Of a DNA stretch of 64,000 bases, positions 1,754-48,027 are shown in pieces. Where the stretch lies: contig CM119372.1 in NCBI GenBank assembly GCA_051294905.1, positions 27,344,001 to 27,408,000 of the forward strand, read 5' to 3'. Position numbers and translations under genes: made by a program. This DNA comes from Botryllus schlosseri (lineage: Eukaryota). Every line of letters begins with the position of its first letter. Position 1 is the stretch's first letter. The notes under the pieces were generated by a model, which did no database searches, had not been told where the DNA came from, and worked only from the letters and a program-made list of their open reading frames with translations.

Positions 1754-2360
1754 ATTTAGGTCTGATACGTATCAGCGATTACGAAATATTTTGCCTATAT
1801 AGCAGACGGACGGTCAAGAAATATAAACATCGACACACTACCAAGTAATTGATAACAACGCGCCCGCTCGAAGATCCATAAGTATGAAATAAGGGCGCTA
1901 CATTGACAAACACACCAATGCCGTCCATACTAACGGTATAGATCTCAGCACATGGGCTATTAGTTGAAAATTCGACAGTAATATATGCAGTTCCAATTTC
2001 ATTTATCGAATTCAGCTATGTATTCGATTCTTCCCAGAAGTTTGATTTATTAGCCTATGGGGGCAAGATGGTGACAAAGTGCTGTTACTGTCCTCACACA
2101 GAGTATATGTTTATAGCGAGATTGCGTAATGGTAGGAAGCCCATCTTGGTGCTTGGTAGATCGTGGCTACAACCAACTTCCAGCAGGTCGAAGCCAATAC
2201 TTGATCGTAAAACTTGGATTGTGTGGAGAGGGAAGCAGTGGTACTGACTCGATACCCCTTCTGTTCTGTCGCATCTCCAAACAGATCGTTGGTGCACACG
2301 GAAATAAACTATCTTCCTTCTATTCGGCATTTCGTATCATATTCTTCCATATCATTTCAG

Positions 2361-2686
2361 GTGTAGACATCCCGACTGACGCGTATCTTCCATCGGGACG
2401 TCTAATTTTTCCAATAAACAGCGCTCTTAATCCATTCCTGTACTCTGATCTTCCTGACGTCATTTCAAATCGAGGACGAGGAATGGTGATCTGGCTGTGG
2501 CAATCATTTCGTAGATTGAGTAGTGCGCGAGGTCTGCAGGCGAAAGCGTATATCTATGAATACTGCCTTAATTATTTTATGTCAACAGAGTCGACGATAG
2601 CAAATTTACCTCGAGTGCAAACGGTGGAAATGGCTGTAAGCGAAGCGAAAGGACACCATATTCAAGGATTGTCGGGACTATGGTGA
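2361..2686 (+). CDS. LGR/GRL101-like GPCR, last coding exon (ECL3, TM7, C-tail)
   Basis: Acceptor CATTTCAG|GT, phase 1. Reads GVDIPTDAYLPSGRLIFPINSALNPFLYS..., where PINSALNPxLY is the LGR/relaxin-receptor/GRL101 TM7 signature. Stop TGA ends at 2686. Confidence 0.82.
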
Positions 2687-7500: not shown

Positions 7501-7677
7501 CGCCAGTGGGCCATAGCCCACCCTTTGAGAACCCCTGCACTAATGCTTACAATTCCTATACGTGCTTTTACCTTTGAATTCCAATATCTCTATATATAGT
7601 GACAATTGCTGCTGGCAGCGTAAGGGAACGCGAGAAAAGTGGTATTTGGCGACGAGTTAACGACAGCCTCCATTGAA

Positions 7678-8580
7678 ATGAATGCAACGAATGTGTCACA
7701 ATACCCATCAGCGGGCACCTTTCCAACTGAAGAACTGGAGGAAATAAATTTGATCCTTTTGGTAGCGACATTTTGGATAATATCAAACTTGTTGGCCTAC
7801 GGGAGAGCTAAAAGAAAATTTAAGACGAATACGAACGACGGCAGATTGTACATGCTATGCAGTTTCACTATGATTTTGGGTTCGATTCAGCTTTTCGTGG
7901 ACATTGCCATGTTTCACGTCCAGCTTAATCCTGAAACTTGTGAATTGATGGCGGATGTGAGCACTGTATTCACAGGATTGGCATTATTTCCGGTTTACAC
8001 TTTTTTGTGGTTTCGTCAACATGTTATCTATTCCAACCCGATTTTACGGCCACTCGTACCTAAGTTTATTAGGTACCTTAGCTATTTCGTACTATTGAAT
8101 ATGATAGTCTCCGTCTCCATATTATTTTACATGGCCGTGATCCCTTTTTCAAACACGGTTGTTCCTTGGTATGGTTGTTCCGAAATATCGCAGTACGAAA
8201 ATTCATCTGAACGAACAGTTCAGATATTCCCTATCGTCACTGGCGTATTCCTATTATGTGGACAATGTTTTCTGTTATTTCTCTTCCTCTACCCAATTTA
8301 TATCATAAAAAAGATACGTGTCCCTGCCCGAATGGCAAGTGACGACGTGGCGATTTCGAAGAAGGTCAGAAGATGCGTCATCTGTTTCGATGTTGTAATA
8401 ATGACTGACTTCATGTCAATTGCCTTAACGATGCCGTCATGGTATCCTCCGTCATATGTATTTTTACACAGCATAACGAACACTGATGTTTGTATGAATC
8501 AGACAACAATGTTAGCAACGTTCGAATACTTCGGAGAGTTGATGTGCTACCTAGCTTACCGTCGTGGAAGTGCAAATTAA
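7678..8580 (+). CDS. Intronless orphan 7-transmembrane (GPCR-like) protein, ~300 aa
   Basis: The first ATG of the 313-codon ORF is at 7678. N-terminal N-glycosylation sequons NAT and NVS. Seven hydrophobic segments. Cys at the top of TM3 (ETCEL) and Cys in the ECL2 position (WYGCSE). TM3 ends in FLWFRQxxxYxxP instead of DRY. Confidence 0.85.
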   Translation: MNATNVSQYPSAGTFPTEELEEINLILLVATFWIISNLLAYGRAKRKFKTNTNDGRLYMLCSFTMILGSIQLFVDIAMFHVQLNPETCELMADVSTVFTGLALFPVYTFLWFRQHVIYSNPILRPLVPKFIRYLSYFVLLNMIVSVSILFYMAVIPFSNTVVPWYGCSEISQYENSSERTVQIFPIVTGVFLLCGQCFLLFLFLYPIYIIKKIRVPARMASDDVAISKKVRRCVICFDVVIMTDFMSIALTMPSWYPPSYVFLHSITNTDVCMNQTTMLATFEYFGELMCYLAYRRGSAN

Positions 8581-24151: not shown

Positions 24152-25741
24152 CAGGGGTCGGCAACCTTTTGCTAGTCGCGGGCCAAATTTCGGGTGTACA
24201 ACTTTTTGGCGGGCCGGAATTTTTCTTAGTACTATATTTTACGCTCACTTCGGTATATTATCCTACATTGCTGCAATCTCAATCATACCAATCAGAAGAC
24301 ACATGTATTTACACTTCAACAACACAGAATAAATGTGACAATTGACGCAGCTTGCTTTGTGAAAGGTTTTCAACTTATGGTAACAAGTCAGATGAAACAA
24401 GAATCAGACCCTATATTCAAAATGGGCTTCCGAAATACGTGATCTTAGCTTGCTGGTGGTGAGTTTGCTTGCGTGAATTTCATTGTTCAAAATTATTGTT
24501 CACATGCGTACGTGCTTCCAAAAATCGATGCAATTTCTTTTGCATTGTTGGTCAAGCTGGGATAAAGACCAATTTCAAGAACGTACTCTTTGTCAAAGTC
24601 ATGCAGCGATATGCTCTTTGTATGAAATTTGTCATTCAATTCAACTGCATCGCATTTCAGAAAGGTCCACTTGAAATTTTCAGGCAAAGGTATTGGCGTC
24701 CACATTAAACGGAGTACTGAATAGTCAGAACTCATTTTGTAGAGAAGGAATGTCGGAAAAGCGGGTGAATATTCAGTAGTTAAATTTCGTATCACAGTTA
24801 CAAATGTAGTGTTGGTACTAGGTTTTCTCTCCTCCAGTATAGGAAAGTGAGCATAATTTTCTTTGTACTGTTGACATTTCCAGAGTCACAGATTTGTTTT
24901 GAATGCGCCTCAACATCTCATGTATTTAGTTGTTTTCCCCCTGAAGTTGCAAATTCAATTTGTTCAGATGTGACGTTAAATGTACCAGGAAAGCAAGATG
25001 AGATACCCATTTTCGATTACAAGATTATGAGTCGGCGATATTTGTGTTTTCGAGGAAAGTTGCTATTTCATTTCTCAGTTCATACACTCGTGTAAGCATA
25101 GCTGTTCGACTTAATGCGCGAAGCCGCGAACGTGACAGATATAGGCCTCCATGACATCGCCATATTGATTCTCTGCTTCTAGTAATATCTGGCGTAACTG
25201 ATTCAGTTAATGAGACGAAAATCATCTTAACAGTTTTCACCATTGTGGCCAAAACACTATTCAGGTTTGTTGTCTTGGCACACAATGCATTCTGGAAAAT
25301 TTAACTATAGATAGGCTAACTTACATACGGAGGCTAGTTATCTATAATTGAACAGTTTGAGATTCCGTCATTGCGTCTGAGAAGTTCCAAGCGTTTTTGA
25401 AGCAAAGGAAGAACGCCTTTATTGCCACACCCAATTAGAGTGGTAAACCCTTTAAAAAAGTATGGAACACCTTCGGTTGCGAGATACACCCGATCGATAA
25501 GCACTGATCCAGTCTAGTCTATCTCCATCTCCTACTTCAACCACTTGCGTTTTATGGCGTAACAATAGACTAATACGTTGTAGGCTACTATTATATCGTA
25601 GCAATGCCGCATTTTTTCATGCAGTGCTGCACTGCAGATTGAAACTCATTATGAAACGGCGGGCCGTATTCTTGTGATAACTAATTATTATGTAGCGGGC
25701 CGGACGATTTCGCTTGGCGGGCCGTACGTTGCCGACCCTTG
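24152..25741 (-). mobile_element. hAT Buster/Charlie element with a decayed GTF2IRD2/EPM2AIP1-type transposase
   Basis: TIR CAGGGGTCGGCAAC / GTTGCCGACCCTTG. Perfect TSD CTATATGC. Minus-strand remnants LCAKTTNLNSVLATMVKTV, ELRNEIATFLE and YPSLTNNAKEIASIFGSTYACEQ. Confidence 0.9.
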
Positions 25742-41465: not shown

Positions 41466-41520
41466 ATGGCGGAAGGAAGTCACTCCTCACCTGCAACAGC
41501 TCAGGAATTCTTACTCACCG
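41466..41520 (+). CDS. NLR coding exon 1 (MAEGSHSSPATAQEFLLT)
   Basis: ATGG start with an upstream in-frame stop. Strong phase-1 donor G|GTAAGA. Confidence 0.6.
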
Positions 41521-42336: not shown

Positions 42337-42453
42337 AAGCATCTACAATGTTGGCACAGGGTGGAATAAACAATCAAAACTTCACAAATTGCACCTTTCA
42401 ACTTTCTGCTCGGGACCACATTAATGAAGACTGGGATAACGACAAACTAATAG
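42337..42453 (+). CDS. NLR exon 2 carrying the N/Q-rich motif (EASTMLAQGGINNQNFTNCTFQLSARDHINEDWDNDKLI)
   Basis: Pyrimidine tract plus TTACAG acceptor and G|GTAATT donor. 117 nt, phase 1-1, open frame. Confidence 0.72.
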
Positions 42454-43194: not shown

Positions 43195-44630
43195 AGCAAT
43201 GTGAAGAGCTAGTAAACGTTGTCAACGAAAAAAACATTGCAGAAAATCTCTCGTAATGTTTTTGGTGATTTTAAACATGAAGATCTCAAAGAACCTGACT
43301 TTTGTGTCTATCCGTTACTACAAAAAATTACAGGGAAGGATTATTTTAAAGGAAGGCGTGAGAAAGTCGAAGAGAAAACGATTGAAACAAAAGTATCCCG
43401 AATTTTTGGTAGGTCATCATCAAAAATCGTGAAATGTGAAATGAGGAATGAGATAGGATTCAACGCCAGAAAATTACGCAGAACAGAATTCGTTTCATTC
43501 GAAGGAGTACTGAAGTTACTTTTGGAGCGCAAAAACTTCACTCCGTCCGATAAGAATCCAGTCACTGCTGTCGTAGCCTCGGCGGGGTCCGGCAAAACAA
43601 CTCTAATGCGAAGAATGGCGACAAAATGTCTGAGTGAATTTGGTCGACAACACGGGAAGGAATTGATCCATTATATAGAATTGAAAGACGTGAAGTTTGA
43701 GCGACGTATCAGACCATTCGAATTTTTATTTAGCGGACTCTACAACAGCGAGCAAAAGATGAAACAAACCTATCAATGGCTTTTAGACAACCAAGCAAAA
43801 GCGATTTTGTATTTCGATGGGTTTGATCAAGCGGCCTGGAGGGATCAACCAAACGATCGGAAAATATCAGATTATGATGAGGCCGATGAATCAACGATTA
43901 TGTTCAATATTCTCTCCCGAAATATACTTTCCCACGTTAAAATTGTGATATCGTCACGCGAATTCCGAGTTTCAGATCTACCTCTGGACGCGCAACCTGA
44001 TGATATAATTACACTTTCCGGATTAAAGTTGGAAGATGCGGAAAGGCTTTTCGTGCATATCATTGAAAAGAATGGAGCTAAAGCATGGGGAAATATTTGC
44101 GTATTGTCACCGAGACTGCTTAGTATCATATCTGTCCCAGTGTTTCTGATACTAACCGCTATGTTAGTGAATCATGACTCTTCAAGAATTCCCAGAACAG
44201 TTGCCGAATTGTACAATGAAATTATATACAACTTTGTGCGCGTGAAAAATATTGAAAACCAGGAGCACATCTTTGAAGTGATCGATAAACTGAAAGGTAT
44301 GGCGTTTGAGGGTATGCAGGAAGGACGAGTTGCATTTAAATACAAAGATCTCGAAAAACATAATCTTTCGTCATCTGATGCAAGCGATCTTATCTTGAAA
44401 GTTCCTGGGCAACTCCCGCGCTGCTGGCCGTCTACTGCAGGGTGACTTCAATTTTTTCTTCTGCCACCAGAGTATACACGAGTATCTTGCAGCAATCTAC
44501 GTGACGGAAATGAAACTAAGTTAAGTCACGGAGTTTAACGACGACTTTCTACACGAGAACAGATGGCGCGTGGTTCGCAGATTTGTCTACGGCTTAGTTT
44601 TCGAGGACAAGCTGTACGAAGTACATCAAG
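43195..44630 (+). CDS. NLR exon 3: NACHT NTPase with HD1/winged helix (frameshifted)
   Basis: Walker A ASAGSGKTT (43576-43602), Walker B ILYFDGFDQ, sensor-1 IVISSR and PVFL motif. After the frameshift: FFFCHQSIHEYLAA (WHD FxHxSxxEYLAA) and RWRVVRRFVYGL. Acceptor CTACAG, donor G|GTTAGC. Confidence 0.92.
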
Positions 44631-47710: not shown

Positions 47711-48027
47711 TGTCAAATCGGGCGGAAAAACGAGGGATCCCTGCTCGATCTATTCGTTCGCAGCTCAAGAAAAACGAGGGTCTGAAGGATAACCATAGTC
47801 GCATGGAAGTATACACAGCAATGTATGAGTCAAAAGACGACGGTTTGATAAAACTTCTTTCGTTAATCGATGTGACGGAAATTGCGTTAAGTCATGATGA
47901 AGTTCATATCGTTGGATCACTGGTTGCAAAGAGTGGTGGTCTGAATGAATTGAGTCTTGCAGAGTGTACAATCGAAGAAGAACAGTTGAGAATCATAACA
48001 AGAAATCTGGCTGATCAACAAGTTCAT
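47711..48027 (+). CDS. NLR exon 4 (HD2 and first LRR-like repeats)
   Basis: Phase-1 acceptor. Reads ...MEVYTAMYESKD...LNELSLAECTIEEEQLRII. Donor CAT|GTGAGT. Confidence 0.85.

What the first reader, a model, noticed from the sequence alone, without database searches (positions are those of the whole stretch)
42337..42453. Animal NLR with no death-fold domain and a candidate amyloid (RHIM-like) signalling motif on a dedicated symmetric exon
Seen in sequence: the spliced N-terminus before the NACHT exon is only ~57 aa, with no room for a CARD, PYD, DD or DED. It contains GGINNQNFTNCTFQL (42360-42404), rich in G/N/Q with periodic hydrophobics, on a 117-nt phase 1-1 exon. Established knowledge: fungal NLRs (NWD2/HET-s) and bacterial NLRs signal through short N-terminal amyloid motifs. 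The segment before the RIPK3 RHIM core reads VNIYNCSGVQVG, and QNFTNCT resembles its first half. Inference: this may be an amyloid-motif-NACHT-LRR receptor, i.e. a prion-like immune signalling system in an invertebrate, with the motif gained by exon shuffling. The IQIG/VQVG core is missing, so it would be a distinct motif class. No partner effector is visible in this window.
Basis: partly seen in the sequence, partly recalled or inferred. Interest (0 to 1): 0.8.

Follow-up and report, generated by a model that had tools for sequence, protein, structure and literature searches.

The report
Shared motif on NLRs and kinases
The small exon is a worn copy, on a broken gene, of a short conserved peptide that sits in front of over a hundred immune-receptor (NLR) genes and several IRE1-like kinase genes in this sea-squirt-like genome; it may link receptor to kinase by amyloid-like stacking, which is untested.

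Summary
The 117-nt phase 1-1 exon is real. As assembled, the gene is broken: two frameshifts and a stop in the NACHT exon end the spliced product at 77 aa. The exon is the most divergent of 47 examined copies of a ~24-aa family motif (L-A-E-G-E-N-V-x-Q-x-F-x-N-S-x-V-N-V-V-A-G-D-Q). 123 of 159 motif hits lie upstream of a NACHT exon, against a random mean of 4.9. The motif has a cRHIM-like VxxG core in 37 of 46 copies but is not a Pfam RHIM. Other agents of this scan already reported the NLR motif on other DNA of this genome. All five kinase loci fetched are in compatible phase. NLR- and kinase-side motifs are about 55% identical, with synonymous sites saturated. Best reading: a homotypic, probably amyloid-type, NLR-to-kinase signalling motif. 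Splicing, binding and fibril formation are not shown.

The parts
41466..41520 (+). Predicted first coding exon (ATG, 18 codons, phase-1 GT donor)
   Evidence: no RNA support
42337..42453 (+). Motif exon, 117 nt, phase 1-1; alternative in-frame acceptor at 42340 is the family position
42351..42422 (+). 24-codon core of the family motif, degenerate here (5 of 15 highly conserved positions kept; median 13)
43195..44630 (+). NACHT-WH exon of an ascidian-type NLR (PF05729 58 bits; up to 50% identity to paralogs), broken at three places
43228..43256 (+). First lesion: frameshift at an A7 run; the exon-2 frame ends at TAA 43254-43256
44399..44412 (+). Second lesion: paralog alignments switch from frame +1 to +2
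44522..44524 (+). Third lesion: in-frame TAA in the winged-helix/HD region
47711..48027 (+). Predicted downstream exon homologous to the post-NACHT region of S. clava NLRs; one LRR-like stretch by eye, no Pfam LRR; boundaries read by eye

Best explanation
The exon is a divergent copy, on a probably pseudogenised NLR gene, of a genome-wide ~24-30 aa signalling module on its own phase 1-1 exon. SHOWN: the module precedes NACHT exons of three distant subfamilies, and also single-exon IRE1-like kinase domains and a TPR-like helical exon. It is conserved as protein. INFERRED: splicing puts it N-terminal to each domain, in the place of a death fold. A ligand-triggered NACHT oligomer clusters several copies. 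These nucleate a beta-arch (cRHIM-like, amyloid-type) stack that recruits the matching motif on the kinases, which are switched on by clustering as IRE1 and RNase L are (activation by assembly is my recalled knowledge; one search shows only a cited title on high-order Ire1 assembly). This would be a tunicate counterpart of RHIM-coupled RIPK signalling and of fungal or bacterial NLR amyloid signalling, built from a different motif and a different kinase family.
For: Family and position: 150 hits with one paralog exon. 123 of 159 hits lie <60 kb upstream, same strand, of one of 176 NACHT loci; random mean 4.9, max 11 in 200 draws; 3 near an opposite-strand NACHT. Subfamily coverage is A 69/105, B 21/30, C 8/14, other 8/27, and representatives of A, B and C are only 22-31% identical in NACHT. 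Exon identity: phase-1 acceptor in 46 of 47 copies, other-phase YAG in 1 of 47. Kinase link: 6 of 36 orphans lie within 6 kb upstream of a kinase exon; random mean 0.05, local-shift mean 0.26, max 3 in 2000. 5 of 5 fetched kinase exons are stop-free, 801-828 nt, phase 1-1, from three subclades 31-41% identical; 4 keep HRDLKPxN. The best PDB match is the IRE1 kinase, E 1e-24. NLR versus kinase motif profiles: probability 99%, E 6e-18; identity 0.53-0.55, pS 0.72-0.89, pN 0.26-0.31. Cross-seeding BASS pairs are 43-56% identical (bioRxiv 2020.01.06.895854). Pattern: conserved Asn/Gln, Val, Gly turns, Pro in 0.5% of core residues, VxxG in 37 of 46; no compact monomer fold, pLDDT 59, pTM 0.25. 17 NACHT loci have two or more copies.
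Against: No fibril, binding or splicing data. No RHIM match: 0 of 34 and 0 of 6 peptides, none over cut-off in the genome, and the G-phi-Q-phi-G signature pattern [VI]Q[VILC]G in 0 of 46. Three conserved acidic columns (87%, 93%, 85% charged) would repel in an in-register stack unless they face outward (criterion from Kajava 2014). In fungi and bacteria the effector motif is usually C-terminal and the genes adjacent; here it is upstream of the kinase and the genes are dispersed. Only 6 of 71 kinase loci have a detected copy within 6 kb. Copies were found by protein similarity, which biases pN/pS downward. A link to S. clava N-terminal motifs is not significant: score 11.9, 2 of 150 shuffles higher.
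Confidence: 0.5

Rival explanations
1. The module is a non-amyloid short docking motif. It binds, by beta-strand addition, one common globular adaptor, chaperone, trafficking or degradation factor, so NLRs, kinases and TPR proteins are parallel clients rather than a receptor-effector chain.
For: The motif has the same upstream position in all three gene classes. A single consensus is shared by about 160 loci, whereas fungal and bacterial systems diversify their motifs. Conserved acidic residues. No RHIM score.
Against: 24-30 conserved columns is long for a linear motif (my judgement). It has a Val/Asn/Gly, Pro-poor pattern, a VxxG core and tandem copies.
Confidence: 0.3
2. The kinase- and TPR-linked copies are passengers or decoys. 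An NLR 5' cassette (promoter plus first exons) was recruited onto other phase-1 exons, and the motif there is functionless or a dominant-negative regulator.
For: All modules are phase 1-1 exons and so shuffle easily. Kinase-side motifs do not form one clade in a weak 72-nt tree. One of five linked kinases has lost the catalytic Asp, and one unfetched linked kinase locus has an internal TAG.
Against: Kinase-side copies keep the conserved core although synonymous sites are saturated against NLR copies. Three divergent kinase subclades carry it.
Confidence: 0.12
3. The window's own gene is functional. Either the lesions are assembly errors or a null allele, or the 77-aa product is a motif-only regulator (like Pirk or CARD-only proteins), and its odd motif is a separate specificity class.
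For: One lesion lies in a homopolymer run. A 409-codon stretch is still open, so loss looks recent, yet 10 of 15 conserved motif positions differ, several conservatively; much of that divergence probably predates the lesions (inference). The peptide finds no close relative in the genome.
Against: Three independent lesions. Loss of the VxxG glycine. An early stop far upstream of later introns should trigger nonsense-mediated decay (established knowledge).
Confidence: 0.08

Closest known systems
RHIM (PF12721) and amphioxus RHIM-NACHT-repeat proteins (Kajava et al. 2014, PMC4262963; parts 1-2 of 4 read)
   Same: Short non-globular motif at the position of a death fold, on NACHT proteins and on kinases; Gly-Asp after a Val-rich strand (GVQVGD there, VVAGD here); tandem copies.
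   Different: No Gln in the tetrad and no Pfam RHIM score. The partner kinase is IRE1-like rather than RIPK, and the motif lies upstream of it. [quoted passage not shown]
Insect and crustacean cRHIM (PGRP-LC/Imd; PMC13506858 and PMC9387487, passages)
   Same: VxxG core in 37 of 46 copies; shared by putative receptors and downstream proteins.
   Different: On cytosolic NLRs and kinases, not PGRP/Imd. No profile comparison with cRHIM was possible; VxxG alone is a weak signature.
Fungal NWD2/HET-S, PP and bacterial BASS/Bell amyloid signalling (bioRxiv 2020.01.06.895854, PMC7889193, PMC12881547; passages)
   Same: N-terminal motif on an NLR with a ~50% identical copy on a non-NLR protein.
   Different: Animal; partner genes not adjacent; no HeLo, Bell or MLKL-like partner found; no Pfam hit to those motif families.
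IRE1 / RNase L kinase-KEN proteins (PMC10400998, passages; PDB)
   Same: The partner kinase domain is closest to IRE1. At one locus an IRE1-type kinase plus KEN RNase follows 4 kb downstream on the same strand.
   Different: Single-exon kinase, expanded to at least 71 loci. No luminal, transmembrane or ankyrin sensor was seen in the fetched stretches. A KEN hit lies near only 1 of the 6 linked kinases.
Styela clava NLRs (RefSeq models)
   Same: Closest named proteins (27-38% identity). Several have domain-less, beta-prone N-termini and some have a Death domain there instead, so the two kinds of N-terminus alternate.
   Different: Their N-terminal motifs are not significantly similar to this one.

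Membership tests
RHIM (PF12721) | Score above the Pfam RHIM cut-off | tested here: not met
   0 of 34 and 0 of 6 peptides; best genome hit 17.7 bits against a cut-off of 20, not at a motif exon
RHIM (PF12721) | (I/V)Q(I/V/L/C)G tetrad | tested here: not met
   0 of 46 family copies; the window copy lacks it too
cRHIM | VxxG core | tested here: met
   37 of 46 family copies, 41 of 46 with V/I/L; absent from the window copy
cRHIM | Profile-level homology to insect cRHIMs | not testable with these tools
   No cRHIM alignment or model was available
NLR amyloid signalling motif (HRAM/PP/BASS type) | Motif N-terminal to the NACHT/NB-ARC domain | tested here: met
   Genomic order and phase; transcript-level joining not shown
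NLR amyloid signalling motif (HRAM/PP/BASS type) | Matching motif on a non-NLR effector | tested here: met
   6 kinase and 2 TPR-like loci; that they act as effectors is inferred
NLR amyloid signalling motif (HRAM/PP/BASS type) | Effector motif C-terminal, gene adjacent to the NLR | tested here: not met
   The motif is upstream of the kinase exon in 5 of 5 fetched loci; no NACHT in those stretches
NLR amyloid signalling motif (HRAM/PP/BASS type) | Cross-beta fibrils and templated seeding | not testable with these tools
Animal NLR (NACHT-LRR) | NACHT domain with WH | tested here: met
   PF05729 58.1 bits, PF17779 23.4 bits
Animal NLR (NACHT-LRR) | Intact reading frame at this locus | tested here: not met
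   Two frameshifts and one stop
Animal NLR (NACHT-LRR) | C-terminal LRRs | tested here: inconclusive
   No Pfam LRR; homology to the post-NACHT region of S. clava NLRs
IRE1/RNase L kinase-RNase (partner genes) | KEN RNase in the same protein as the motif-linked kinase | tested here: inconclusive
   KEN exons over cut-off 8-9 kb downstream at 1 of 6 loci, but behind a second kinase; one transcript not shown

The most novel reading that the evidence does not exclude
Ascidians of this lineage run a second animal amyloid-signalling system besides RHIM/cRHIM. More than 100 NLR sensors template a shared motif onto an expanded family of cytosolic IRE1/RNase L-type kinases, including at least one motif-kinase-kinase-KEN ribonuclease, so that NLR activation triggers phosphorylation or RNA destruction by seeded polymerisation.
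Probability: 0.3. Interest if true: 0.9.

Novelty: new variant of a known kind. Interest (0 to 1): 0.7.

Why it matters
Ascidian NLRs are described as lacking an N-terminal signalling domain (PMC11508797, passages), and tunicates as lacking RHIMs (PMC4262963). [quoted passage not shown] A conserved motif shared by more than 100 NLR loci and by IRE1-like kinases supplies both the missing signalling end and a named candidate partner. That makes the question testable with two synthetic peptides. An NLR coupled to an IRE1/RNase L-type kinase would be a new wiring of innate immunity in the sister group of vertebrates. The window's own copy is a poor test object.

Tried and rejected
RNA: no listed run held half of the stretch's words and no holder is on record as RNA. 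The lay of four runs showed no exon joint and no raw-read depth on exons 1-3; I treat this as uninformative. Complex prediction of NLR-side with kinase-side motifs was not available, so there is no verdict. AlphaFold of the motif alignment gave pLDDT 59 and no assigned secondary structure. AlphaFold of the TPR-like exon gave an all-helical model at pLDDT 52, with no Foldseek match at E<=0.001; the Atlas and Pfam suggest TPR only. The Atlas search with the motif gave a top score of 0.82, below use. The PDB sequence search with the motif profile gave 3 chance-level hits. The protein search with the motif alignment found none among 8000 candidates, which is weak evidence. A weak EAD10 hit (2 of 34 members, E 0.0098) was rejected as chance after passages of PMC8195603. 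Apparent motif hits were discarded because minus-strand loci had not been reoriented (redone). The S. clava motif resemblance was not significant. The 72-nt motif tree has low support and was not used for order of events. Of the 36 orphans, 8 were assigned to kinase or TPR-like exons. Five more (L076, L078, L081, L082 and part of the neighbourhood of C3:97441) or their surroundings were looked at without finding a partner domain, and the rest were not examined. The NACHT list is a lower bound (105 of 208 candidates scored), so many orphans are probably NLRs. The motif could not be searched in metagenome contigs. Seven literature searches listed no paper on this motif; subscription journals are not covered and no supplements were read.

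Full report
Setting. The window lies in a 495-Mb, 219-contig genome. The closest named relatives of its NACHT exon are Styela clava NLRs at 27-30% identity, so an ascidian is inferred. The exon has 105 scored paralogous loci (of 208 candidates) at 42-50% identity. Further NACHT searches gave 176 distinct loci in total.

The observation. The exon at 42337-42453 is as described: 117 nt, AG/GT, phase 1-1, open. With an ATG exon at 41466-41520 there are 57 codons before the NACHT exon. No death-fold family was found in 65 of 65 upstream segments scanned. The frame entering exon 3 at 43195 matches paralogs for about 12 codons, shifts at the A7 run (43228-43234) and stops at 43254, giving 77 aa. A second frameshift lies near 44405-44410 and an in-frame TAA at 44522. 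Of 29 paralogs read over the same span, 25 have no internal stop. RNA data did not settle splicing.

The motif family. The window peptide finds only itself in the genome. A similar exon upstream of paralog L015 finds 150 places; two more queries added a few. Of 159 hits, 123 lie within 60 kb upstream, on the same strand, of a NACHT exon; random placement gives 4.9 (max 11 of 200 draws), and 3 lie near an opposite-strand NACHT. I examined 46 of these copies plus the window's. The consensus is L-A-E-G-E-N-V-x-Q-x-F-x-N-S-x-V-N-V-V-A-G-D-Q. 46 of 47 have a phase-1 acceptor just upstream, 40 at the same offset, and 42 of 47 have a strong phase-1 donor. An HMM built without the window copy ranks it first of 2215 window segments, so it belongs to the family. 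It is the most divergent member: 5 of 15 highly conserved positions are kept (median 13), and the VNVVAG stretch is replaced. Because the gene still has a 409-codon open stretch, most of this divergence probably arose while it was alive (inference). The motif sits on three NACHT subfamilies whose representatives are 22-31% identical, while their motifs are 54-60% identical with pS 0.63-0.80. That points to long-standing protein-level constraint rather than recent copying. The pN/pS ratios (0.3-0.5) are biased by how the copies were found.

Is it a RHIM? Not by test: no Pfam RHIM in 34 plus 6 peptides, none over cut-off in the genome, and no (I/V)Q(I/V/L/C)G in 46 copies. It has VxxG in 37 of 46, the cRHIM core as given in PMC13506858 (passages), followed by Asp as in the GVQVGD of RIPK3 quoted by Kajava et al.. 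So it resembles RHIM/cRHIM in pattern and position but is not filed as a member.

Partners. 36 hits had no listed NACHT downstream. Fetching around some of them showed a kinase exon (L079) and a helical TPR-like exon (L080) 2-3 kb downstream. Genome searches gave 71 related kinase loci and 18 TPR-like loci. 6 of the 36 orphans lie 1.1-5.1 kb upstream of a kinase exon (random mean 0.05; local-shift mean 0.26, max 3 in 2000) and 2 lie upstream of a TPR-like exon. I fetched 5 of the 6 kinase loci. In all five the kinase is one stop-free exon of 801-828 nt with phase-1 ends, compatible with the phase-1 motif donor; three of the five kinase acceptors are weak by my crude score. They fall into three subclades 31-41% identical; four keep HRDLKPxN and one has lost the catalytic Asp. 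The best solved relative is the IRE1 kinase (E 1e-24). NLR-side and kinase-side profiles align at 99% probability (the kinase-side alignment included L078, whose link to a kinase is not shown), at 53-55% identity with saturated synonymous sites. At G000:C3:46-58 kb the order on the minus strand is motif, single-exon kinase, two small phase 1-1 exon candidates, a second multi-exon IRE1-type kinase, then KEN RNase exons over cut-off. The second kinase's first exon candidate starts in phase 1 but also holds a Met, so one gene or two is undecided. No KEN hit lies near the other five linked kinases.

Mechanism. Shown: exon structure, family, positional association, protein-level conservation, and presence on non-NLR genes. 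Inferred: splicing, N-terminal position in the proteins, homotypic binding, amyloid state, kinase activation by clustering. A motif shared by an NLR and a non-NLR protein is the criterion used to define fungal and bacterial amyloid signalling motifs, and cross-seeding pairs there are 43-56% identical (bioRxiv 2020.01.06.895854, passages). Against this: conserved acidic columns, a motif upstream rather than downstream of the effector domain, dispersed genes, and only 6 of 71 kinases with a detected copy. I put amyloid-type NLR-to-kinase coupling at 0.5, a non-amyloid shared docking motif at 0.3, passenger or decoy copies at 0.12, and a functional window gene at 0.08.

Prior knowledge. RHIM-NACHT proteins are known in amphioxus, and tunicates were said to lack RHIMs (PMC4262963, parts 1-2 of 4). 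Ascidian NLRs are described as lacking the N-terminal domain (PMC11508797, passages). Seven searches listed nothing on this motif. Within this scan, eight earlier notes describe an N-terminal motif on NLRs in this genome; I had found the family before looking. The lines shown do not mention kinase or TPR partners, and look-ups for that found none. Other notes report IRE1-type kinase-KEN modules fused to immune sensors in this genome; I did not test them.

Verdict. The locus itself is a probable pseudogene with an atypical motif. The family it points to is a strong candidate for a new variant of NLR amyloid signalling in an animal, now with named candidate partners. Interest 0.7.

Noticed in passing
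window 7624-8580 (+): A 318-aa stop-free, hydrophobic, multi-pass-looking ORF with no Pfam family at E<=1.
   Followed up: partly
window 2117-2686 (+): A 189-aa segment that by eye resembles the last helices of a G-protein-coupled receptor (recalled pattern); no Pfam family.
   Followed up: partly
window 24938-25099 (-): Fragment matching the transposase-like N-terminus of P0023 (tblastn E 3e-6).
   Followed up: no
L076:4700-5640 (G000:C8:3.87 Mb): NHL-repeat exons with very short introns 3.7 kb downstream of an orphan motif exon; four motif copies lie about 35-56 kb apart on C8 with no listed NACHT. A nested gene or a further partner type.
   Followed up: partly
L088:6556-6819 (G000:C3:65355-65618, -): A strong phase 1-1 exon candidate of 87 codons, 7.4 kb upstream of the motif-kinase locus; ubiquitin-like by eye, no Pfam hit.
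   Followed up: partly
G000:C3:38.10 Mb, C3:20.74 Mb, C10:10.11 Mb: IRE1-like kinase exons followed within 2.5-8.6 kb by the TPR-like exon, which suggests a phase-1 exon toolkit of motif, kinase, TPR-like and NACHT modules.
   Followed up: no
G000 genome-wide: 28 matches to the KEN RNase family over cut-off, many in long single open frames, with a cluster at C3:13.0-13.8 Mb.
   Followed up: no
L077:803-1165 (G000:C12:3.10 Mb): A degenerate second motif copy by eye, just upstream of the scored one in the same open frame.
   Followed up: no
P0017, P0021, P0025, P0045 (two named S. clava), P0068 (Phallusia): NLR N-termini made of tandem Ile/Val/Asn/His-rich repeats that look like beta-solenoid or amyloid-type units, different from this motif.
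   Followed up: partly
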